Of a DNA stretch of 24,821 bases, positions 12,352-23,444 are shown one piece after another. This stretch comes from a virus (taxonomy: Duplodnaviria; Heunggongvirae; Uroviricota; Caudoviricetes): IMG/VR virus record IMGVR_UViG_3300023290_000014; one strand, written 5' to 3'. Position numbers and translations under genes: made by a program. Position 1 is the first letter of the stretch, and every line of letters begins with the position of its first letter. The notes under the pieces are model-generated. The model did not search any database. It saw only the letters and a program-made list of their open reading frames with translations, and had not been told where the DNA came from.

Positions 12352-14109
12352 TTATACTTTGCACCTCTTTGAATAATCTGCAATAATTTCCTCAATACCA
12401 TCAAAAATAACTTTAAACCTTTCAAAACTAATTGTTTTACAATTTGCCTTTATAACCTTTGTTGAAAACACATGCTTACCATATTCTGTTTTTGTATCCG
12501 TATCATTAGATTTATTAAATGTCTTTCCATCAAGCACCGTTGATAGTACCGTGCTATCAAATAAATCCTCCATACAAGACTCTTTCCCTCCAGGAAGCAA
12601 TGGTGTTAATAACAAATAGAGATTGTCAAATATGTGGGTATACCTTGCCTTACGAATAGTATCAACATCATTTGGACAATTTTTTACTTTATCCTTTAAG
12701 TGATTTAATAAATCTTTAGGGCCTGAGTCATTATCAAGAAGCATAATAACAGGGTGCTTTGGTTTAAATTTCTCGAACCTCTTTTTTTGTTCTTGGTATC
12801 TTAATATAAATCTTTTGAAGTCTGTAGCACCGCCAGAAATGTCAAGAAAATAGCTTGTTTTTTCAGTTGCTTTAAAAAAATTAACACGATACTCATTTTT
12901 AGAGCTATCATCAGAAGAATTAAACAATAAAGGATATGAATTCGCCAATGACTTCAAAGCACACTTTAAATATACACGGTCTGTTTTACCCTCAGTGAGT
13001 ATTGTTGGCATTTCCATTCCATGAAAATTTTTATAGTATAGAAAATAACTGTAGGCTTTTTCTCTCGAATTCAATTTTGCAGTGTAGTTTAATCCATGAT
13101 TTACACTTTGGTACTTTTCCAACTGTCTTGCGTTCTTTAGTTTTAAATTATTATATTTATCTATTGAGTCAATGAATCCAAAACGGCCTTCTAATTTAGC
13201 ACATGTACCTTTTTCAATCTTTCCTGATTCAGTAACAATAACAAAAGAACCATCTTTATAAAGAGAATGAGCCATGGCACGCGTTACTTTTGCATATTCT
13301 TTGCCAACATTCACTTTTTTATTAACAGTCAACCCAGTAACATCTTGTCGTGATGTTTTATAACAAACCCTTGTCTTTTTATCATTTATTTTAAAGCCAG
13401 CCTTTATAATCTCTTTAATTAAAGTTGGACTTAGGGTTACAGACTCTCCGCCAACATCAGCAATCTCTTTTGGAAATGTTTTTTTATTAGTTGAAAATGT
13501 AAGATCATCAGCATACCGTGAATAATTGCATCCGTATTTCTTTGCTAACTTTGATAATCTTATATCAAGAACTCCACTAATTAAGTTACTTATAATTGGA
13601 GAGCATGGGCTTCCTTGAGGAAGTCCATTCTGAAAACATGCAATTTGTGCGATCGTTGTAGCAACAGTATTATTTAATCTAAAATCTCTGTTTGATAAGA
13701 AAAAACCTCTAACACGTCCAAAATTAAAACTATCAAAATAATCCTCAAGGTCTATATTTAGTAGTAGCGTTTTACCTCTATGCCGTTCAGCATGCGTAAT
13801 AATTGACTTTTCTTTTTCAAACCCATGAGATAAAACTGGATTAATATTATATTTTTTATAAATTTCTGCACGACATAAATATAAAACATCAGCTAATCTA
13901 CGTTGAATATCTTTGAGCTTAGTGGTAGGTGCTGATATGACTCTCGGCGCTCCGTTTTTTTTAGGGATAGTAAATTGTGTATACTGCGTTTCAGCTTTTA
14001 AACGATAAATAACATCCGTAAGAAAAGCAGTTTTAAGATTCAAGATACTAGCCAAATCTTGCCTGTTAGCAGCGTTTTGTAAACGTTCTAAAATTGATAG
14101 GGGTGCCAT
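12352..14109 (-). CDS. Retron-type reverse transcriptase fused to a C-terminal TOPRIM-like domain
   Basis: 585-aa ORF with the RT active-site motif YADD (NYSRYADDLTFS) and the retron-typical VTG motif (QDVTGLTVN). C-terminal extension carries TOPRIM-like acidic motifs (ILTEGKTDRVYL and VIMLLDNDSGPKD). Visibly AT-rich compared with flanking phage genes. Confidence 0.8.
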   Translation of the reverse strand: MAPLSILERLQNAANRQDLASILNLKTAFLTDVIYRLKAETQYTQFTIPKKNGAPRVISAPTTKLKDIQRRLADVLYLCRAEIYKKYNINPVLSHGFEKEKSIITHAERHRGKTLLLNIDLEDYFDSFNFGRVRGFFLSNRDFRLNNTVATTIAQIACFQNGLPQGSPCSPIISNLISGVLDIRLSKLAKKYGCNYSRYADDLTFSTNKKTFPKEIADVGGESVTLSPTLIKEIIKAGFKINDKKTRVCYKTSRQDVTGLTVNKKVNVGKEYAKVTRAMAHSLYKDGSFVIVTESGKIEKGTCAKLEGRFGFIDSIDKYNNLKLKNARQLEKYQSVNHGLNYTAKLNSREKAYSYFLYYKNFHGMEMPTILTEGKTDRVYLKCALKSLANSYPLLFNSSDDSSKNEYRVNFFKATEKTSYFLDISGGATDFKRFILRYQEQKKRFEKFKPKHPVIMLLDNDSGPKDLLNHLKDKVKNCPNDVDTIRKARYTHIFDNLYLLLTPLLPGGKESCMEDLFDSTVLSTVLDGKTFNKSNDTDTKTEYGKHVFSTKVIKANCKTISFERFKVIFDGIEEIIADYSKRCKV

Positions 14110-14144
14110 ATCTAAAAATCAACCTTGATTATCAGTTAGGGTAG

Positions 14145-14275
14145 GCACATGTAGGCACTCTTACGCAAAGCATAGGACAGCCCAAGAATGGCTACAAGGA
14201 TGTCAGAAGGCGAATCCATCTAACATTTAGATCACTGATTGCGATACCACAACCAACAAATCTGCCTACATGTGC
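14145..14275 (-). ncRNA. Candidate retron msr-msd non-coding RNA bounded by a1/a2 inverted repeats
   Basis: Perfect 13-bp inverted repeat (plus strand gcacatgtaggca at 14145-14157 and tgcctacatgtgc at 14263-14275) separated by 105 nt, immediately upstream of the RT start on the same strand. This is the canonical retron arrangement. Exact RNA ends are not determinable from sequence. Confidence 0.5.
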
Positions 14276-14356
14276 ATGCTTAAGCTACCATGATCATTTA
14301 AGAATGTGAAGAACCGTTAACAGTTTTGAAAGAGCCAGATCATAGCATTGCGCGCG

Positions 14357-14375
14357 CTCGTATCCCCGCCACGCC
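14357..14375 (-). other. Candidate cos site (cohesive-end region)
   Basis: Minus strand reads GGCGTGGCGGGGATACGAGCGCGCGC. The first 13 nt match the start of the P2/186 19-nt cohesive end as I recall it (GGCGAGGCGGGGAAAGCAC / GGCGTGGCGGGGAAAGCAT). Orientation relative to Q is as in P2. From memory only. Confidence 0.35.
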
Positions 14376-14420
14376 TGCCCGCTTTGTGTAGTGGTTTTCA
14401 TGCACCTGCATGACATAAGC

Positions 14421-14444
14421 AAAAGCCCGCCAGCTCTGGCGGGC
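14421..14444 (-). terminator. Rho-independent terminator downstream of the HNH-motif gene
   Basis: On the minus strand, GC-rich stem GCCCGCCAG/CTGGCGGGC followed directly by TTTTGCTT. Confidence 0.5.
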
Positions 14445-14557: not shown

Positions 14558-15277
14558 TTAGCCAAAGCAGAAACCAATATTGCAATTTGAAACTCCACAG
14601 TTGTGAAATTGATGTGGACCTACTCTTAGCTTGTGTTCGTCTCCTACAATCCGAGTCCCCTTAACCAACATATCTAATCTTTCCACAATCAATCTTTCAG
14701 GCGCATCAACTTTAATAATTAAACGAGGACCTTTCCTTTTTTCTATAATAGTTATTCTAGGACCGACAACCTGAACATCCCAATGCCTTGCACTACAAAC
14801 CCACTCATTCTTAATTAATTCAAGATTAACAATACCTTGACTATCGTAAAATTTACCCGAAATAAGAAAAGCATTATTTTCTTTTTCAATGGTTAACAAT
14901 GGCTCATTTTGAAACATTATTGGTACAGTACAGGATTCAAACGTCGCACCACCAAATATTATTGTTGGATGCCTATCAGAAAAGTCCAATATATCGGCCA
15001 CATTCCCTTTTTGTAAGGCTGCAGGAGATTCCATTGCTTTAATTATTTTCTCTTTAGAGTAAAGACGTTTCGTTACTTTCGCATGGCACGTAGGACAAAG
15101 TAGTGCTATTGCATTTGGAGAGTGCTCCTTTGCATCAGCGTATGTGGGAATTACATGCTCATACTCAACAATGGGAGAAGCACAAACAACGCAACCGAAG
15201 CCACAGCGCTGCCTTACCTCCAGTTTTACAGGTTCAGGAATTGTTCTAGATAACCCATGCTTGTTAATAGTTGTCAT
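14558..15277 (-). CDS. Uncharacterised HNH-motif nuclease-like protein (cargo gene)
   Basis: 239-aa ORF with AAGG/AGGT ribosome-binding site 5-8 nt upstream of ATG. N-terminal HNH-like zinc-binding signature (CGFGCVVCASPIVEYEHVIP...NAIALLCPTCHAKV) and a Cys/His-rich C-terminus (HQFHNCGVSNCNIGFC). AT-rich. Confidence 0.6.
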   Translation of the reverse strand: MTTINKHGLSRTIPEPVKLEVRQRCGFGCVVCASPIVEYEHVIPTYADAKEHSPNAIALLCPTCHAKVTKRLYSKEKIIKAMESPAALQKGNVADILDFSDRHPTIIFGGATFESCTVPIMFQNEPLLTIEKENNAFLISGKFYDSQGIVNLELIKNEWVCSARHWDVQVVGPRITIIEKRKGPRLIIKVDAPERLIVERLDMLVKGTRIVGDEHKLRVGPHQFHNCGVSNCNIGFCFG

Positions 15278-15399
15278 AACCTTACCTTAAAACTTCGAGA
15301 AACCTTTTATATATTGATACTATATCAACTAACGCCTCGCACAGCTCGTTGTTCAACCTTGCTGACGCCAGAAGCAAGTTCAGACGCCAGCAACGTTTC

Positions 15400-15633
15400 T
15401 TAATGCAGCCAGCTGTCGTCTTCCCACACCTTCTGCATAATTTTCATCACTTGCTTCCTTTCTTCGTCCAGTTGCAGTCCGGTCAGTTCCACACCGTTAG
15501 AGCTACCTTTGCGGATGCGAATTACCGTTTTTGGATATAGGGGGCGCAGATTGCGGTAAAGCTCGGATTCAAGGGCGTCCAGGGTAGACTGGCTAATCTT
15601 CTGCTCTTTATCGATCATTATTTCAATGCGCAT
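15400..15633 (-). CDS. DinI-like protein (resembles C-terminal module of 186 Tum antirepressor)
   Basis: Start at internal ATG 15633 with GAGGTG ribosome-binding site. The 77-aa product (MRIEIMIDKEQKISQSTLDALESELYRNLRPLYPK...KVWEDDSWLH) has the DinI-family pattern. Confidence 0.65.
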   Translation of the reverse strand: MRIEIMIDKEQKISQSTLDALESELYRNLRPLYPKTVIRIRKGSSNGVELTGLQLDEERKQVMKIMQKVWEDDSWLH

Positions 15634-15643
15634 AAAAGTCACC

Positions 15644-15832
15644 TCAGCTGATGACATCCATTGAGCGGTTGTATTCGTGGGTTCTGATTTTTGCCATGAG
15701 TTCATCTGTCAGTTCAGAAACCCACTGCAAAGCCAGCCCCTTCTCTTCATCACTACACTCACTAGCCGCTACAAGCTTAAGAAAAAAATCAATGCGCTGG
15801 AGCTTCAAAGACTCCAAAAAATAGTCCTGCAT
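15644..15832 (-). CDS. Small protein upstream of DinI-like gene (possible Tum N-terminal module)
   Basis: ATG at 15832 is preceded by GGAGGAAAG. The 62-aa ORF ends 10 nt before the DinI-like start, in a different frame. The longer 96-aa version in the ORF track would run through the LexA box and is less likely. Confidence 0.4.
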   Translation of the reverse strand: MQDYFLESLKLQRIDFFLKLVAASECSDEEKGLALQWVSELTDELMAKIRTHEYNRSMDVIS

Positions 15833-15874
15833 CTTTCCTCCTATGACACCACAAGCAATACTGTATGTATAACC

Positions 15875-15893
15875 ACTGTTTATATTTACAGTA
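15875..15893. promoter_or_regulatory. LexA box (SOS operator) upstream of the tum/DinI-like module
   Basis: aCTGTttatatttACAGta is a perfect CTGT-N8-ACAG with an AT-rich spacer, about 45 bp upstream of the 15832 start codon. Confidence 0.65.
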
Positions 15894-15985
15894 TATAATA
15901 ATCTTACTGATGTAAAACGTTTTTTTACGTTCATCAGCCTGATATGCCTGGTATTATTAAGAGCACGAATTGTTAACCCGCGTAA

Positions 15986-18400
15986 TTAATACAGGTTTCG
16001 CCACTTATCATCTTCCTGCAAACGCTGGTTCCGATAGAAGATACGCAGGCCTGCTCCTGACGGAATACTGCCGCAGCGAAGGAGTAAATCGACCTCTTTC
16101 TCGCTGCCATCAAATCCTCTGGACTTCAGTTCATAGACGAGCTGCTGTCGCTGATGGTCTGTAATTCGCTGTTTGTAGTCTTTACGCCGTTTCGGTTTCA
16201 CCAGGCGTAACCTTGCAGCCAGTTCCCGGCGCTCTTTTTTGCTCATACTGTGCAGGTAATCGTGCAACTCCTTGTCATCCATGCGGGTAATGTCCGTCCT
16301 GGTATCCCCATCAGCTGATTTGTCTTTCCCTTGTTGGTTCAAATTTTCAGCAAGGGGACAGTTATTGCCACGAGTCCAAGGGGCGCAAGCGCCCTGGTCG
16401 GCTGCCGCCTCCTGAACGTCAACGGCCTTACGAACCATTTTCCACTTCACTGCATGAGTGCAGATCTTGCCCTCTGCAATGGGTGACCAGATGCCATAAA
16501 TACGAATACCGTGATCGCCATAGGCGGTTGGCTCTTCGTTGATTTCATAAGCGGTTCTGATGAGGTGATATTTGCGGGGAACCAGTACGCCGCCCTGCTT
16601 CATGATGTAGGTGGCAAAACAACCAGCATCAGCAGCAGCCAGAATGGCATCAAGACGCGGGTTATCCAGTACCGGCGCACCTGCTTTTTTGTCACCCTGT
16701 TGCCTTGCCGCCTGACCAGCCAGCAAGCGAAGTTCACGGTAAGCCTGACGTCCCGGAATACCAAAGAAGCGGAATTGCTGAACACGATGCAGAGACGCCC
16801 AGGCATTAACGTATTCAGCGTTATCACGCAGGGATTTACCCGTTTCCTTGCTGATCTCGCCAGCCAGACCACGCCCGTCAATGTTCTTACTGATGTATTT
16901 CGCGATGTAGCTTGTCGGCGTTCCTTTGCGCGGGTTTATCAGCTCAGATTTAAAGCGTGGACCAGTGTTATTACCCAGTTCCTCGCGGTCTTCACGGATG
17001 GCAAACTTACGCAACAATGCAGTAATGGCGCGGCGGTCTTTTTTGCGCATGAAACACAACAGGTGCCAGTGAACTGTACCGTCATGATGCGGCTCAGCCA
17101 CCCGCACGCCATACCAGCGCAACCCGGCTTTGTGCATCGCCTTACGAAATGCAGCAAACATGCCGACCAGATAATCACTGCTTTGTCTTACCGTCGCATT
17201 TGTCCAGGTTGGGTTTGGTCTGCCGTTATTGAGCGTGGAATGGAAACGTGACGGACAGGTAATGGTGTAGAAAACGGCGCAGTCACCGCGCATTTCCGCG
17301 ATAAGCTCCAGACCTTTAACACAGGCCATCATCTCATTGCGGCGGTGCGCCGGGTTGCTGCTGCTGGCGTTTACCACGTCTTCCATATCCAGCGTGTCGC
17401 CCTCTTCGTTCACCAGTTCATGAGAACGGAAAAACTCCAGTGACTTGCGGCGCTGCTCACGTTTATGCATCACGGCTTCATAGCTGACATAGGGAGATGC
17501 TTTTTTGCTGACCAGGCAGACAGCACGCAACTGCTCTTCCCGCCATTCGCAACGCATTTTCCATAATTTCCGGTACCACCAGTCGGCGCACAACATACGC
17601 GCCAGCGAACCCGGAATGAGTTCATAGGGCACGGGTTTACGGCGGTTTCTTTTCCGACGGAGTTGCTCAAACGCAGGCGGGATGACATCCAGACGCAGGG
17701 TTTCCGCTGCCACCTTTTCCCATGTCTTGCGGATTTCTTCTGGCTTAACGTCATCGGTGGCATACAAATCACCACAAGCTGCATCAAGGCACATGCTCAT
17801 ATGCGCAGCGACAAGGGTAGACAGGCGTTTCACCTGATCCTGACTCATTTCAGGCAGAATCAGCAGGCCGTCCAGCCCTACATGGCTTGCCATAAAACGA
17901 AAAGATGCAGATAGCTGGCTGTCGCGTACATGCTCCAGTCGTTCCAGACATGGCTTAATCGTCTCACGTAAATAGCGGGAATAAGCCTTTGGCCTGCCCA
18001 GGCTGCTGAAGTATTCAATACGTTGCATCAGCGGCTTGCTGATATGGGAGGGCTGGGCGCTGACATCTGCCAGAATGACCATGTCCGGGTTAAAACGCTG
18101 CTGCTCATGCGCCAACTTTGCCCGGCTAATGAGCTTATCCTGCTCTATTTCGCGTTGGACAGGATCACGGGATTCATTAAAGAAATAACGCTCCCAGACC
18201 TGATCACTCAGTGCCTCGCGGCGCAGTTGTTCCTGCTCGTTATCGGCAGCGTACAGAGTGATCAGGTTTGAAAGCGCAGAAACCGGCGCAACTTCCGCCG
18301 GGTCCAGATAAGGGTTAATGGCCTTTTTCGGGCTGTTCCATGAGAACGATGCGGCAGCCTCGTTAAAGCCGCAGCAGTTGCTCATATCGGCATGGCTCAT
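15986..18400 (-). CDS. A: Replication initiation protein gpA (rolling-circle HUH endonuclease)
   Basis: 804-aa ORF with HUH motif (VHWHLLCFM) and a catalytic tyrosine pair (SYIAKYISK). Start overlaps the Dam stop (ATGA). Confidence 0.85.
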
Positions 18401-19254
18401 GCACGTACTCCGTACACGGCAGAACTATCCACGCCACGCGAATAATCAAATCCCACCCAGCAGCGCGGCCCGGAAACAGCAATGATTTCTGTTGCTGATT
18501 TACTCTCACCAGCTGCTACGCCGATGCTGCGTTTTACCTTGATATAGTGGTGAGTAAAATTGCGATACAGCGAACGGATCAGGGATGTGTCACTGTTAGA
18601 AACAATGACCGGATGTCCTTCTGATGACCGATGTTCAAGAACGGATGCCAGGTGATACTGGTCATCTTCAGTAAAGCCGTCAGCGTGATAGCCGGAAAAC
18701 GTACCGTCATAAGGCGGATCGCAATACACCACATCCCCCGCCTTCAACATCGCCAGCGTTTCATCAAAGCTGGCGCAGATAAACGTTGCTCGCTGGGCTT
18801 TTTCTGCAAAAGCGCGAATTTCTTTTTCAGGGAAATACGGATTTTTATAATTACCGTAGGGAATGTTGAAATGCCCGCTCTTGTTATAGCGACATAACCC
18901 ACGGTAACCGTGACGATTGAGATACAGGAAATATACCGCTTTCATGAAATCAGTAATTTCAGTTGAGTAATTAAACTCCTGCCTTATGTTGTAATAAGCC
19001 ACCTCCCTGTTTGCGATCTCAAATAAAACTTTGGCGCGAGATATAAACGATTCACAATCAGCGGCAACCTTTTTATAGAGGTTGATTAAATCAGGATTAA
19101 TATCCGCAACCAGATAGCAGGGATAATCCGTCTCCATCATCACAGCACAGGAACCCGCGAAAGGTTCAACTAGTCGCGGACCAGCAGGAAGATGTTTTTT
19201 CAGTTCGGACATTACGGCGGTTTTATTTCCCGCCCATTTCAAGATGGTGCTCAT
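18397..19254 (-). CDS. dam: DNA adenine methyltransferase (Dam-like)
   Basis: Likely start at [11 protein letters not shown] (ATG 19254, ATGA overlap with the upstream gene). SAM-binding motif EPFAGSCAV and catalytic DPPY ([10 protein letters not shown]). The longer 305-aa ORF would run into the upstream gene. Confidence 0.8.
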
Positions 19255-19478
19255 ACAGCACCTCCGTTGTAATGTTTGCCTTTCAGCTCTGCGATTTCCT
19301 GACATGTAATGCAAAGCTGCACACCCGGAATGGCACGGCGGCGTGCTGGCGGAATTGGCGCTTCACACTCAACGCAAAGCACGCGGGACACGCCCGGCGT
19401 TTTGGCACGGGCAGCACGGATATGGCGCTGGCGTTCTTCTTCAACGCGCTGCTGTACGAGATCCATTGCATCAGCCAT
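19251..19478 (-). CDS. TraR/DksA-family C4 zinc-finger protein
   Basis: 75 aa with CVECEAPIP...CITCQE (two CxxC pairs), the size and pattern of phage TraR-like proteins. TAATG overlap with the upstream ORF. Confidence 0.65.
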   Translation of the reverse strand: MADAMDLVQQRVEEERQRHIRAARAKTPGVSRVLCVECEAPIPPARRRAIPGVQLCITCQEIAELKGKHYNGGAV

Positions 19479-20291: not shown

Positions 20292-20801
20292 TCACAGCAA
20301 ACCGAATGAAGCACCGAGGCCAGTAACGGTATCAACTGCACTCGCCATCGCAGGATTAGCCTGTAAACGGGCCTGCAATGAAACAGCGGCCAGCGCCATC
20401 AGCCGTGTTACAGAGTTAATGCTGCTGATAGCATCACGACGACCTGCACTGGTTTTTACATCGCCGGATACCGCACCTGCAGCAACACGCCCGATCTCTG
20501 CGGTTGCACTCATGACATAATGCGGCAGTTTCTCTTTTGCCACCTCATTAATCGGTACACATGGCAGGCAGTGAATCTGTGCCAGAAAGCCATCTACCAG
20601 CGTTGAATCTTCAGTCAGATCGGTAAGCAACCAGATTTCTGGTGCGGTTAATAAATGAGGTTGAGCTGGGTTCAGCTTGTTCCGCAGAATCTGTACATTC
20701 ATGCCTGCACGTTCTGCCAGTTGCACCAGGTTGTGGCGCAGTGCGAATGCACGACAGGCTTCGTCAAAATGTGGATGTTTGGAAACTTGGTAATCAAACA
20801 T
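20292..20801 (-). CDS. cII: CII-like regulatory protein (186 CII / CP76 family)
   Basis: Likely start at [19 protein letters not shown] (ATG about 20801), about 169 aa. Second gene of the pR operon after apl, as in 186. Family assignment is from memory. Confidence 0.5.
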
Positions 20802-20833
20802 AGTCGACACCCCTGATGTATCCCAAAATGGAA

Positions 20834-21055
20834 CTAGTTGAATACAACATTGCAATCAGTAAGTGCATCAACGGTAAGAGCAGCAAGGTTGATCATTACC
20901 TTTTCTCTTTTCTTGTCTTTCCGAAGGCGATGGCGAGGGATGCGACCATCAGCCAGCATATCGTTGATGGTGTCGATAGAAAGACCAGTAAGTTCGCTAT
21001 AACGCTCAATTGTGACATGTGGCGTATTCAGAGTTATTGAAATGTTAGGGGTCAT
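20834..21055 (-). CDS. apl: Apl/Cox-like excisionase and transcriptional regulator
   Basis: Start at MTPNISITL (ATG 21055, AGGAG ribosome-binding site upstream), 73 aa. First gene downstream of pR and divergent from cI. Contains an HTH-like segment ([22 protein letters not shown]). Confidence 0.55.
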
Positions 21056-21128: not shown

Positions 21129-21157
21129 ATACTAGGATCGCAAAAGAGATATGTCAA
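21129..21157 (-). promoter_or_regulatory. Near-consensus sigma70 promoter (candidate lytic promoter pR)
   Basis: Minus strand reads TTGACA, a 17-nt spacer, then TAGTAT. The -35 hexamer (21152-21157) overlaps the cI start codon; the -10 hexamer is at 21129-21134. It points toward apl. Confidence 0.55.
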
Positions 21158-21747
21158 CATCAAAGTACCCAAATGAAATCAAAATAAATCCCAATAAAGG
21201 TGGTAAGGCTGCGATTGAGCGATTAGTCGAAGCTTATGGCTTTACGACACGACAGGCTTTAGCTGATCACTTGGAAGTATCAAAAAGCACTCTGGCGAAC
21301 AGGTATTTGCGGGATACGTTTCCTGCAGACTGGATAATCCAATGTGCTCTTGAAACAGGAACCTCACTGAAATGGTTAACCACCGGGCAAGGCCTTAAGC
21401 AAAGCTCGCTGACAGCAGCTACAGAAGAGCTTGCCAAGTTTCGCCTTACCGCAGGCAAAATGATTGAAGATGGTTCATATGTCTTCGATTCATCATTTCT
21501 TCCTGCAAATCTTTCATCACCAATTGTTATTCAGGATGGGCTCGTCACATACATTTGTGATCAAAAATTTTCTGAAGTACTTGATGGGCACTGGTTAATC
21601 AACATCGACGGAACCTATTCCATTCGAAAAATCACAAAGCTTCCAAAAGGTATGATTAAAATTACAAGTACAGAGAATAGCTTTGAATGTGCATTTTCTG
21701 ATATTGAAGTAGTTGCTTGTATAAGAAGTACAATAGTTTCAAATTAA
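21151..21747 (+). CDS. cI: CI-type immunity repressor (186 CI-like)
   Basis: 198 aa with an N-terminal HTH region (RLVEAYGFTTRQALADHLEVSKSTLANRYLR) and a C-terminal oligomerisation-like domain. Divergent from apl and upstream of int. Confidence 0.7.
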   Translation: MSTSKYPNEIKINPNKGGKAAIERLVEAYGFTTRQALADHLEVSKSTLANRYLRDTFPADWIIQCALETGTSLKWLTTGQGLKQSSLTAATEELAKFRLTAGKMIEDGSYVFDSSFLPANLSSPIVIQDGLVTYICDQKFSEVLDGHWLINIDGTYSIRKITKLPKGMIKITSTENSFECAFSDIEVVACIRSTIVSN

Positions 21748-21767: not shown

Positions 21768-23444
21768 ATGAATTCATTTTCCATCGTTATATTCTTATTA
21801 GCATTTCTCGCCCCCATTCTAGCTGTAATATTATTTAAGCAAAGCAAAAAACATAAAGCGGCTATAAATACCTTGACAGCTAACAACATAGCCCTTTCCA
21901 ACCAACTGAAAGAAAATCAAGAAGAATTAGCACAGACTGTACGAGATCTATCAGAGCTTGAAGGACGAGCTGCGCCATTATGGCAATACGTAGAATTGCA
22001 CAGCGCAGTGATGGAAGCAGAGAATAAGATAAAAAATGCAGACTCAATAGCCAGGCAAAAAATAGAAGAAGCCCAAATAAAGGCTGCTAAGACAGTAAAC
22101 GAAGCAAATTATCAAGCTCAGATAAAAATAAGCAACGCTAATAGCGAAGCTATAGCAATTACTAAAGACGCTCGCGATGCACGCCTGAAAGCTAAAGAAC
22201 GTCTTGATAATGCCAATAGTAAAGCAAATGAGCTGATCTCAAATGCTAATGACAATGCAGTGAAAATTATTTCCGATGCAGAAGAAAGAGCAAAAGAGAT
22301 TGCTGGTTCAGCATATGAAGCTAAAGAGTTTGCAGAAAAATATGAAGCAGTTGCCAAATCAATGAAAAATAAAATTGAAGGTTATGGTGATGAATGGATC
22401 ATCCCTAACCGTAGCGTTCTCGATGAATTGGCAGAAAATTATGAGTTTACAGATGCAGGTAAGGAATTACAAAAAGCCAGGGAGTTAACAAAATCATTAA
22501 TAAAAACTAATAAAGCTGCTTCGTGTGATTATGTTGAACAAAACAGGCGTAATACTGCTATCAACTTTGTTTTAGATGCCTTCAATGGAAGAGTTGACAG
22601 TATTTTATCAAAAGTCAAACACAACAATTTTGGAAAACTTTCCCAAGAGATAAAAGATGCGTTTCAACTTGTAAATTACAATGGTTCTGCCTTTAGGTCC
22701 GCAAAAATAAGTGACATCTATCTTCAAGCTCGACTCAACGAGCTAAAATGGGGAGTTGCAGTTAATGAAATTATGCTCGAAGAAAAAGAAGAGCAAAGAA
22801 GGATTAAAGAACAACTTCGTGAAGAGGAAAGAGCTCGTAGGGAGTATGAAAAAGCGATAAAAGAAGCTGAAAAAGAAGAGAAAGCTATTCAGCAAGCTAT
22901 AAATAAAGCAACAAAAGAGCTTATGCTTGCAAATGAAGAACAACGCTTAGCTTTAGAGCAAAAAATAGCTGAACTACAGTTAAAATATGAAGAAGCTGAA
23001 GCTAAAAACCAACGAGCTATTTCTATGGCTCAACAAACTAGATCAGGCCACGTTTATATAATTAGTAATATTGGCTCATTTGGCGAAGATGTATATAAAA
23101 TTGGAATGACACGCCGCCTTGAACCACTTGATCGTGTTCGTGAACTCGGTGATGCTAGTGTTCCTTTTTCGTTCGATGTTCATGCGATGATTTATAGTGA
23201 TGATGCACCATCATTAGAAAATCATCTGCATAAAGTCTTCAACGAAAAACAGGTCAATAAAATTAACTCACGAAAAGAGTTTTTCAACGTAAATATTAAA
23301 GAAATTAAGTCTGTTATTGAAGATATGAACATCAACGCACAATGGACAATGTTTGCGGAAGCGAAAGAATATAGAGAGTCACTGGCGATTGAGCAAGAGC
23401 GCAAAGCAGCAACTTCCGCCAACGATGAACTGCATGTTGCTTAG
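21768..23444 (+). CDS. Membrane-anchored coiled-coil protein with C-terminal T5orf172/GIY-YIG-like domain (cargo; candidate defence or abortive-infection gene)
   Basis: 558 aa: N-terminal TM helix (FSIVIFLLAFLAPILAVILF), a long charged coiled coil, and a C-terminus with the T5orf172 pattern (VYIISN...YKIGMTRRLEPLDRVRELGDASVPFSFDVHAMI...KEFFNV). Strongly AT-rich, starting 21 bp after the cI stop. Confidence 0.6.
   Translation: MNSFSIVIFLLAFLAPILAVILFKQSKKHKAAINTLTANNIALSNQLKENQEELAQTVRDLSELEGRAAPLWQYVELHSAVMEAENKIKNADSIARQKIEEAQIKAAKTVNEANYQAQIKISNANSEAIAITKDARDARLKAKERLDNANSKANELISNANDNAVKIISDAEERAKEIAGSAYEAKEFAEKYEAVAKSMKNKIEGYGDEWIIPNRSVLDELAENYEFTDAGKELQKARELTKSLIKTNKAASCDYVEQNRRNTAINFVLDAFNGRVDSILSKVKHNNFGKLSQEIKDAFQLVNYNGSAFRSAKISDIYLQARLNELKWGVAVNEIMLEEKEEQRRIKEQLREEERARREYEKAIKEAEKEEKAIQQAINKATKELMLANEEQRLALEQKIAELQLKYEEAEAKNQRAISMAQQTRSGHVYIISNIGSFGEDVYKIGMTRRLEPLDRVRELGDASVPFSFDVHAMIYSDDAPSLENHLHKVFNEKQVNKINSRKEFFNVNIKEIKSVIEDMNINAQWTMFAEAKEYRESLAIEQERKAATSANDELHVA

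What the first reader, a model, noticed from the sequence alone, without database searches (positions are those of the whole stretch)
15400..15893. Near-consensus LexA box driving a tum/DinI-like module that is split into two ORFs
A textbook LexA operator (aCTGTttatatttACAGta) sits about 45 bp upstream of a small ORF with a strong ribosome-binding site, followed 10 nt later, in another frame, by a DinI-like ORF with its own site. In 186 the SOS-inducible antirepressor Tum is a single protein of about 146 aa with a DinI-like C-terminal half that is also made from an internal start (from memory). Here the combined length is similar, but the two halves are in different frames. Either this is a genuine two-gene variant, or a frameshift has split tum; the DinI-like half would still be expressed. 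This is the likely SOS induction switch of the prophage.
Basis: partly seen in the sequence, partly recalled or inferred. Interest (0 to 1): 0.5.

Follow-up and report, generated by a model that had tools for sequence, protein, structure and literature searches.

The report
Split tum SOS switch of Fels-2-like prophage
This is the already described two-gene form (tumA antirepressor plus tumB DinI-like gene) of the LexA-controlled induction switch of 186/Fels-2-type prophages; it is a genuine, very common arrangement and not a frameshift.

Summary
On the minus strand, a LexA box (15893..15874) lies 41 nt upstream of a 62-codon ORF (15832..15644). Ten nt further on, in another frame, comes a 77-codon DinI-family ORF (15633..15400).

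The two proteins are 98% and 100% identical to Fels-2 STM2728 and STM2726.1. They correspond to tumA and tumB of phage PSP3. Lemire et al. 2011 (PMC3121763) already state that Fels-2 and PSP3 have tum split in two by a stop codon, with the upstream gene encoding the antirepressor.

It is not a frameshift or a sequencing error:
- 34 of 38 related loci keep exactly 62 codons.
- The spacer before tumB is 9, 10, 11 or 12 nt, covering all three relative frames.
- Median dN/dS of tumA is 0.07.
- The module occurs in 1125 of 5426 complete E. coli genomes.

ORF1 is a remote homologue of the N-terminal half of 186 Tum (PHROG cross-hit 5.9e-6; hhalign 4e-4).

The operator is double: a second box (15878..15859) overlaps the first, as in colicin promoters, and it is kept in 25 of 36 relatives. 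Also, nearly identical TumA proteins are paired with CI repressors only 33-57% identical.

Verdict: already known, low interest.

The parts
15911..15916 (-). Candidate -35 hexamer TTTACA of the tum promoter
   Evidence: It lies 17 nt upstream of TACTGT (15893..15888). TTTACA is kept at the same distance in most related loci, with one-base variants in some. In 186 the annotated p95 -10 is likewise the TACTGT of the LexA box. The simple promoter scan did not call it, because the -10 matches only 3 of 6 positions. This part is inferred.
15874..15893 (-). LexA box 1 (TACTGTAAATATAAACAGTG), overlapping the candidate -10
   Evidence: It is unique in the window, with 0.00 expected by chance. A CTG-N10-CAG box is present upstream of tumA in 36 of 38 related loci. 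Positions 3-5 and 16-19 are invariant while the spacer varies.
15859..15878 (-). LexA box 2 (CAGTGGTTATACATACAGTA), sharing CAGTG with box 1: a colicin-type double SOS operator
   Evidence: It has 5 mismatches to the consensus, including GTG in place of CTG. It is kept at the same 15-nt offset in 25 of 36 relatives. A 39-nt stretch is 87% identical to the operators upstream of colicin genes on Col plasmids.
15837..15842 (-). Shine-Dalgarno AGGAGG of tumA
   Evidence: Read directly from the sequence. GGAGG is conserved in the relatives.
15644..15832 (-). tumA: 62-aa predicted antirepressor, homologous to the N-terminal half of 186 Tum
   Evidence: 98.4% identical to Fels-2 STM2728. Matches phrog_698 at 3.6e-38; 186 Tum residues 1-70 hit the same family at 5.9e-6 and the PSP3 TumA family at 1.5e-23. 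hhalign gives 4e-4 over columns 4-43, ungapped. Median dN/dS is 0.07. AlphaFold predicts a two-helix hairpin with pLDDT 90.5.
15639..15645 (-). Shine-Dalgarno GAGGTGA of tumB, overlapping the tumA stop codon
   Evidence: Read directly from the sequence. A weak local hairpin covers it, but its folding energy is no better than that of shuffled sequence (z -0.14).
15400..15633 (-). tumB: 77-aa DinI-family protein
   Evidence: Pfam DinI 6.6e-23. 100% identical to Fels-2 STM2726.1 and 78% to PSP3 TumB. 41% identical to 186 Tum residues 71-145. Matches E. coli DinI structure 1GHH at 2.7e-6.
15355..15397 (-). GC-rich hairpin directly after tumB, without a U tract; it lies where 186 has the partial terminator t95a
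   Evidence: The 186 annotation is. Its function is inferred.
14558..15277 (-). 239-aa HNH-motif protein, possibly the distal gene of the SOS operon (the orf97 position in 186, but not homologous to orf97)
   Evidence: Pfam HNH 2.4e-5. phrog_6544 at 2.5e-111. No similarity to 186 Orf97. Membership of the operon is inferred from the position of the terminator.
14425..14444 (-). First intrinsic-terminator-like site downstream of the tum promoter (GCCCGCCAGAGCTGGCGGGC followed by TTTTGCTT)
21151..21747 (+). 186-type CI immunity repressor, the presumed target of TumA
   Evidence: Pfam Phage_CI_repr 8.1e-32 and Phage_CI_C 4.1e-27, with no Peptidase_S24 match. 33% identical to 186 CI and 40% to Fels-2 CI.

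Best explanation
The region is the SOS operon of a Fels-2-like (186-type, P2-family) prophage, in its two-gene form.

In the lysogen, host LexA occupies a double operator (two overlapping 20-bp boxes, 15893..15859) that covers the -10 and start region of the tum promoter. This keeps the operon silent.

DNA damage leads to RecA-stimulated LexA self-cleavage, and the promoter opens. It transcribes tumA, tumB and probably the downstream 239-aa HNH-motif gene.

TumA is a 62-aa helical hairpin homologous to the N-terminal half of 186 Tum. It binds the prophage's non-cleavable 186-type CI repressor and stops it binding DNA. The early lytic promoter then fires and the prophage is induced.

TumB is a DinI-family protein translated from its own ribosome-binding site, which overlaps the tumA stop codon. 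It is an accessory modulator of RecA filaments and SOS, and is not needed for derepression.

Shown here: the sequence features, the homologies, the conservation and the purifying selection. Taken from the literature on close relatives: LexA control of 186 p95, antirepressor activity of 186 Tum and PSP3 TumA, and lexA-null lethality caused by Fels-2. Inferred: that this TumA acts on this CI, that both boxes bind LexA, and that the HNH-motif gene belongs to the operon.
For: - ORF1 is 98.4% and ORF2 100% identical to Fels-2 STM2728 and STM2726.1.
- PSP3 annotates the equivalent pair as tumA ('similar to 5' end 186 tum; UV induction of prophage') and tumB.
[quoted passage not shown] - 186 annotation: p95 is LexA-controlled, and tum follows gene A, as here.
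- Homology of ORF1 to the Tum N-terminal half: PHROG cross-hits and hhalign.
- DinI family membership of ORF2.
- LexA box statistics and conservation.
- Double operator of the colicin type. PMC2994835 states that the two overlapping SOS boxes of colicin genes bind two LexA dimers.
- A 186-type CI without a peptidase domain, and a CII, are present in the window.
- Genuine two-gene status: 34 of 38 loci have exactly 62 codons. Spacers of 9-12 nt occur in all three relative frames. dN/dS is 0.07 with pS 0.58. None of 66 representative clusters carries a C-terminal DinI fusion. The module is in 1125 of 5426 E. coli genomes.
Against: - No experiment on this allele is available to me. The statement that PSP3 TumA is the antirepressor is a personal communication cited second-hand, and ORF1 is only 22% identical to PSP3 TumA.
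- BLASTP finds no similarity between ORF1 and 186 Tum. The homology rests on profile methods with modest scores.
- Near-identical TumA proteins are paired with CI repressors only 33-57% identical. This is not what a simple one-to-one cognate pair predicts.
- Box 2 lacks the canonical CTG (it has GTG), and it is absent from 11 of 36 relatives.
- The promoter hexamers are weak and were not called by the consensus scan.
Confidence: 0.85

Rival explanations
1. A 186-like single tum gene was recently broken by a frameshift or by a homopolymer sequencing error. On this view ORF1 is a remnant and only the DinI-like part is functional.
For: The combined length (62 + 77 aa) is close to the 146 aa of 186 Tum, and the two ORFs are in different frames.
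Against: - 34 of 38 related loci from many genera keep exactly 62 codons.
- The spacer is 9, 10, 11 or 12 nt, in all three relative frames. In-frame cases are still separated by a stop codon.
- Both ORFs have their own ribosome-binding site.
- tumA is under strong purifying selection: median dN/dS 0.07 with synonymous sites nearly saturated.
- No DinI-fused member was found among 66 representative clusters.
- The same sequence is found in 1125 E. coli genomes.
- About a third of the loci, and the ESSI-2 and YenM phages, carry the tumA-like gene alone.
- The 186 linker (residues about 47-70) has no counterpart here.
Confidence: 0.02
2. ORF1 is an SOS-induced small protein with a role other than inactivating CI, for example acting on a host or competitor target. 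Induction of this prophage would then depend on something else.
For: - ORF1 is annotated 'hypothetical protein' in the E. coli RefSeq genomes listed, and 'hypothetical protein' or 'unknown' in most phage records.
- It has no Pfam or PDB match.
- The fold search returned only generic helical hairpins.
- TumA is far more conserved than the CI it is supposed to match. For example, 100% TumA goes with 57% CI in L013, and 98% TumA with 40% CI in Fels-2.
Against: - Profile homology to the N-terminal half of 186 Tum and to the PSP3 TumA family.
- The same position after gene A and the same LexA control as tum in 186 and PSP3.
- It always travels with a 186-type CI that has no autocleavage domain. Such a phage needs an antirepressor to be SOS-inducible.
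- The lethality of lexA null mutations caused by Fels-2 shows that a LexA-repressed phage function induces that phage.
Confidence: 0.1
3. The 'LexA box' is a chance AT-rich palindrome in an intergenic region, and the operon is not under SOS control.
For: The region is AT-rich. CTGT-N8-ACAG alone is expected 0.37 times per window by chance.
Against: - The 20-mer match is expected 0.00 times by chance.
- The box is conserved in 36 of 38 loci, with invariant CTG and CAG and a variable spacer. It sits at a fixed distance from a conserved TTTACA.
- It is also present in the distant relatives 186, PSP3, ESSI-2 and YenM.
- In 186 it is the annotated LexA site of the SOS-dependent p95 promoter.
Confidence: 0.01

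Closest known systems
Fels-2 STM2728 / STM2726.1 (Salmonella LT2 prophage) and the same pair in SopEPhi, RE2010 and many Klebsiella and E. coli Peduoviridae
   Same: The gene pair is essentially identical (98.4% and 100% aa). The position after gene A is the same, as are the double LexA operator, the ribosome-binding sites and the 10-nt spacer.
   Different: The CI repressor of this prophage is only 40% identical to Fels-2 CI. The downstream cargo genes also differ. Box 2 differs at two spacer positions (ACAT against ATGT).
PSP3 tumA / tumB
   Same: It has the same two-gene architecture after gene A, behind a LexA box. TumB is 78% identical. TumA is stated to carry the antirepressor activity (PMC3121763; annotation).
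   Different: TumA is only 22% identical and belongs to a different PHROG family (1993 against 698). The two families are linked through 186 Tum and phrog_8554. PSP3 has a single LexA box and a 3-nt spacer.
Coliphage 186 Tum (p95 SOS operon)
   Same: Tum is a LexA-repressed antirepressor of a 186-type CI. It has an N-terminal antirepressor part and a C-terminal DinI-like part, and the DinI part is also made on its own. An operon follows gene A, with a partial terminator and then a further gene (PMC7708051).
   Different: In 186 the two parts are fused in one 146-aa protein with a linker of about 25 residues. There is a single LexA box. The distal gene, orf97, is unrelated to the HNH-motif gene here.
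Colicin operon double SOS box (ColE1-type plasmids)
   Same: Two 20-bp LexA boxes overlap through a shared CAGTG. The outer half-sites are consensus and the inner ones degenerate. A 39-nt stretch is 87% identical to operators upstream of colicin-like genes on pCKO3 and pF2_18C_Col. In colicins this arrangement binds two LexA dimers and prevents untimely expression of a lethal function (PMC2994835).
   Different: Here it controls a phage antirepressor rather than a bacteriocin. The -35 spacing differs. LexA occupancy of box 2 has not been tested here.
Gifsy-1/2/3 dinI-gfoA/gftA-irsA SOS operon
   Same: It is a LexA-controlled operon that combines a small antirepressor with a DinI homologue. The antirepressors act in trans across prophages (PMC3121763).
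   Different: The gene order is reversed, with dinI first. The antirepressors and repressors are unrelated, and the phages are lambdoid.

Membership tests
Tum-type LexA-controlled antirepressor (186 Tum N-terminal half / PSP3 TumA) | Sequence homology to the N-terminal, non-DinI part of 186 Tum | tested here: met
   BLASTP finds nothing. With profiles, 186 Tum residues 1-70 hit ORF1's family phrog_698 at 5.9e-6, and both proteins hit phrog_8554 and phrog_1993. hhalign gives E 4e-4 over 40 ungapped columns. The homology is remote but reciprocal.
Tum-type LexA-controlled antirepressor (186 Tum N-terminal half / PSP3 TumA) | Promoter overlapped by a LexA operator | tested here: met
   By sequence only. 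LexA binding itself cannot be tested with these tools.
Tum-type LexA-controlled antirepressor (186 Tum N-terminal half / PSP3 TumA) | Located just downstream of replication gene A in a P2-family phage that has a 186-type CI/Apl/CII switch | tested here: met
   gpA lies at 15986-18400(-), CII at 20292-20855(-) and CI at 21151-21747(+). The order is the same as in 186, Fels-2 and PSP3.
Tum-type LexA-controlled antirepressor (186 Tum N-terminal half / PSP3 TumA) | The cognate repressor lacks a RecA-dependent autocleavage domain | tested here: met
   CI has only Phage_CI_repr and Phage_CI_C, with no Peptidase_S24 match at E <= 0.001.
Tum-type LexA-controlled antirepressor (186 Tum N-terminal half / PSP3 TumA) | Binds CI and prevents operator binding; required for SOS induction | not testable with these tools
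   Known for 186 Tum (Shearwin et al. 1998, as cited in PMC3121763 and PMC7708051). Reported for PSP3 TumA only as a personal communication.
DinI family (PF06183) | Match to the DinI profile above the curated threshold over the whole domain | tested here: met
   81.3 bits against a cut-off of 24.2, covering profile positions 1-63 of 63. Matches 1GHH DinI at 2.7e-6 over residues 1-75.
DinI family (PF06183) | Binds and modulates RecA filaments | not testable with these tools
   An acidic C-terminal helix (KVWEDDSW) is present, as in DinI. Activity was not tested.
Colicin-type double SOS operator | Two 20-bp LexA-type boxes overlapping by a few bases, with a CAG half-site at each outer end | tested here: met
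   Boxes at 15893..15874 and 15878..15859 form a pseudo-palindrome. They align column for column with colicin operators.
Colicin-type double SOS operator | Occupancy by two LexA dimers | not testable with these tools
   Requires footprinting. Box 2 has GTG in place of CTG, as the aligned colicin boxes do.

The most novel reading that the evidence does not exclude
The Fels-2-type TumA may be a generalist antirepressor. It would recognise the conserved N-terminal DNA-binding domain of many otherwise heteroimmune 186-type CI repressors.

The evidence is indirect. TumA is 71-100% identical across 33 loci and is under strong purifying selection. The paired CI proteins are mostly 33-57% identical, with the N-terminal domain at 47-93% and the C-terminal domain mostly at 28-41%.

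If this is right, co-resident or incoming Fels-2-like phages would cross-induce one another, as Gifsy prophages do. The colicin-type double LexA operator would then set a high SOS threshold for this shared trigger.
Probability: 0.35. Interest if true: 0.4.

Novelty: already known. Interest (0 to 1): 0.2.

Why it matters
The switch decides when a very common family of E. coli, Salmonella and Klebsiella prophages leaves lysogeny after DNA damage. About one complete E. coli genome in five carries this module. These prophages also carry cargo; here that is a PD-Lambda-1 defence gene and a retron-type reverse transcriptase.

The biology is established for 186, PSP3 and Fels-2, so the finding mainly gives a correct annotation. 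In RefSeq, tumA is still labelled 'hypothetical protein'.

Two side observations could be tested cheaply and may be of modest interest: the colicin-like double LexA operator, and the mismatch between a highly conserved TumA and highly divergent CI repressors.

Tried and rejected
- BLASTP of ORF1 against 186 Tum found nothing. Profiles were needed to see the relationship.
- ORF1 has no Pfam, PADLOC or PDB sequence match.
- The AlphaFold model of TumA is confident (pLDDT 90.5). However, Foldseek against the PDB returned only generic two-helix hairpins, none with E <= 0.001. The fold search says nothing about mechanism.
- The idea that tumB's ribosome-binding site is sequestered in a regulatory hairpin was dropped. 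The local fold is no better than shuffled sequence (z -0.14).
- The 239-aa downstream ORF was tested as an orf97 homologue and is not one.
- The consensus promoter scan did not call the tum promoter. The hexamers given are by analogy with 186 and from conservation.
- Rfam found nothing in the window.
- Bunny et al. 2002 (PMC151935), the primary source for the split tum in Fels-2, is not held in the library. It is cited only through PMC3121763 and PMC8072944. I therefore could not check whether the double LexA box was already noted there.
- The P2-like regulatory-gene phylogeny paper PMC3448106 does not mention tum.
- A heterology index for the boxes was not computed, because I did not have the published frequency table.

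Full report
**1. What is in the sequence.** The module reads on the minus strand.

- Downstream of the P2/186-type replication gene A (15986-18400, Pfam Phage_GPA 2e-127) lies an AT-rich intergenic region. It contains TACTGTAAATATAAACAGTG (15893..15874).
- This is the only site in the window within 3 mismatches of the 20-mer LexA consensus; 0.00 are expected from 100 shuffles. It is also the only CTGT-N8-ACAG, where 0.37 is expected.
- An AGGAGG sequence (15842..15837) follows 41 nt after the box, then a 62-codon ORF (15832..15644).
- The TGA stop of this ORF is embedded in a GAGGTGA ribosome-binding site. After a 10-nt spacer, and in the +1 frame, comes a 77-codon ORF (15633..15400). It is a full-length DinI-family protein: Pfam 6.6e-23 and 1GHH at 2.7e-6.

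- CAGTGGTTATACATACAGTA (15878..15859) shares its first five bases with the end of box 1. The two make a 37-nt pseudo-palindrome.
- A 42-nt query from this operator found 962 plasmid records. The two I inspected are small Col-type plasmids, where the match lies directly upstream of colicin-like genes.
- The alignment is column for column with the colicin double SOS box, including the inner GTG half-site.
- Among 36 related tumA loci with box 1, 25 also keep box 2 at the same offset. The Pantoea, Erwinia and Tatumella relatives, and also 186, PSP3, ESSI-2 and YenM, have a single box.
- A TTTACA hexamer (15916..15911) is found 17 nt upstream of the TACTGT of box 1 in most relatives. In 186 the annotated -10 of p95 is the same TACTGT. 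The promoter assignment here is by analogy, and the consensus scan did not call it.

**3. What the two ORFs are.**

- ORF1 is 98.4% identical to Fels-2 STM2728 and ORF2 is 100% identical to Fels-2 STM2726.1.
- The same pair occurs in SopEPhi, RE2010 and dozens of Klebsiella and Escherichia Peduoviridae.
- Phage PSP3 annotates the equivalent genes as tumA ('similar to 5' end 186 tum; UV induction of prophage') and tumB ('similar to dinI and 3' end of 186 tum').
- ORF2 is 41% identical to residues 71-145 of 186 Tum.
- ORF1 gives no BLASTP alignment to 186 Tum, but profiles connect them. The first 70 residues of 186 Tum hit ORF1's family phrog_698 at 5.9e-6, over residues 6-44. They also hit the PSP3 TumA family phrog_1993 at 1.5e-23. 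ORF1 hits phrog_8554 and phrog_1993 in return.
- hhalign of a 43-sequence ORF1 alignment against the Tum N-terminal part gives E 4e-4 over 40 ungapped columns.
- The shared core is a hydrophobic helix, a turn containing a conserved Cys, and a motif of the form (L/I)A(L/I)xx(I/V)(S/A)E(L/I).
- AlphaFold predicts a two-helix hairpin (helices 2-23 and 28-61, pLDDT 90.5). The fold search gave only generic hairpins.

**4. Frameshift or genuine two-gene form?** It is genuine.

- I analysed 38 tumA loci: this window, four of the phage loci (Fels-2, SopEPhi and two Klebsiella phages) and 33 genome loci from Escherichia, Citrobacter, Enterobacter, Klebsiella, Kluyvera, Raoultella, Serratia, Pantoea, Tatumella, Erwinia and others. 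In 34 of them the ORF is exactly 62 codons.
- Where tumB follows, the spacer is 9, 10, 11 or 12 nt. All three relative frames therefore occur, and the in-frame cases are still separated by a stop codon.
- About a third of the loci lack tumB altogether. The ESSI-2-type and Yersinia YenM phages carry a tumA-like gene alone.
- Pairwise Nei-Gojobori analysis of 34 distinct tumA sequences gives median pS 0.58, pN 0.08 and dN/dS 0.07.
- An exhaustive phmmer search of 1.84 billion cluster representatives found 66 clusters. Nearly all are short, and none has a DinI extension at its C-terminal end.
- The 561-bp module is present in 1125 of 5426 complete E. coli genomes, in most of them at 95-99% identity.
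- The antirepressor and DinI modules therefore occur alone, adjacent or fused. The fused 186 form is the exception, not the ancestor broken here.

**5. Mechanism.** For 186, LexA represses p95. After DNA damage Tum is made, sequesters CI and prevents it from repressing pR (PMC7708051; PMC3121763).

- For Fels-2, lexA null mutations are lethal because the prophage is induced (PMC8072944).
- The window carries the matching switch. There is a 186-type CI (Phage_CI_repr plus Phage_CI_C, with no S24 peptidase domain), a CII (CP76) and an integrase.
- I therefore read the region as follows. The double LexA operator holds the promoter off. The SOS response opens it. TumA inactivates CI, and TumB modulates RecA and SOS.
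- A GC-rich hairpin without a U tract follows tumB (15397..15355), at the position of the 186 partial terminator t95a. The first terminator-like site on this strand is at 14444..14425, after the 239-aa HNH-motif ORF. That gene may therefore be the distal member of the operon, as orf97 is in 186, although the two proteins are unrelated.
- The steps involving LexA binding, the TumA-CI interaction and the extent of the operon are inferred, not shown.

**6. An unexplained detail.** TumA is much more conserved than its presumed partner.

- This window's CI is 40% identical to Fels-2 CI although TumA is 98% identical.
- L013 has a 100% identical TumA and TumB but a 57% identical CI.
- Across the loci where a CI was found, CI is mostly 33-57% identical. 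Its N-terminal domain is 47-93% identical and its C-terminal domain mostly 28-41%.
- In an alignment of 28 such CI proteins, residues 21-82 are clearly the conserved part: mean top-residue frequency 0.76, against 0.50 for the rest.
- This would fit TumA binding the DNA-binding domain and acting across immunity types. It could equally be ordinary modular mosaicism combined with a generally conserved helix-turn-helix domain. It is a lead, not a result.

**7. Comparison and verdict.** The closest known systems are the following.

- Fels-2 STM2728/STM2726.1: essentially identical.
- PSP3 tumA/tumB: the same architecture with a divergent TumA.
- 186 Tum: the fused form with a single box.
- Colicin operators: the same double-box design.

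All sequence-testable membership criteria for a Tum-type antirepressor module and for DinI are met. The biochemical ones cannot be tested here. The finding is correct, but it describes an already published arrangement that is common in enterobacterial genomes. Interest is low. The double operator and the TumA/CI discordance are minor additions, and I could not check whether they are already in print.

Noticed in passing
window 21768-23444 (+): A 558-aa protein lies between cI and int. It matches the PD-Lambda-1 anti-phage defence protein (PADLOC 4.7e-120; Pfam DUF4041 plus T5orf172/MUG113). It looks like a defence cargo gene in a P2-family hotspot.
   Followed up: partly
window 12352-14109 (-) and upstream 14110-14420: A 585-aa reverse transcriptase matches retron-type RT-Toprim (type I-C) models at 2e-221. 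The region just upstream is unusually structured (fold z -2.6) and could hold the retron msr/msd RNA. Rfam has no match for it.
   Followed up: partly
window 14558-15277 (-): A 239-aa protein with an N-terminal HNH motif (Pfam 2.4e-5; phrog_6544 at 2.5e-111, function unknown) occupies the orf97 position of 186 but is unrelated to Orf97. The first terminator-like site after the tum promoter lies beyond it, at 14444..14425, so it may be SOS-induced.
   Followed up: partly
window 21151-21747 (+) versus L002, L013-L045: Near-identical TumA proteins are paired with CI repressors only 33-57% identical. The CI N-terminal domain is conserved and the C-terminal domain mostly is not. This may mean TumA acts across immunity types.
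   Followed up: partly
loci L007, L008, L009 and about 12 of L013-L045: tumA-like genes behind a LexA box occur without any DinI-like gene. This is seen in the ESSI-2-type and Yersinia YenM phages and in the Pantoea, Erwinia and Tatumella prophages. The DinI module is therefore optional.
   Followed up: partly
E. coli RefSeq genomes: The module is present in 1125 of 5426 complete E. coli genomes. In the listed records tumA is annotated only as 'hypothetical protein', and some sources call it 'levan regulatory protein'. This is an annotation gap.
   Followed up: no
window 18397-19314 (-): A 305-aa D12-class N6-adenine DNA methyltransferase lies upstream of gene A, as in Fels-2.
   Followed up: no
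locus L043 (Siccibacter turicensis): The tumA homologue is truncated to 20 codons and no LexA box is found within 140 nt upstream. It is probably a decayed copy.
   Followed up: no
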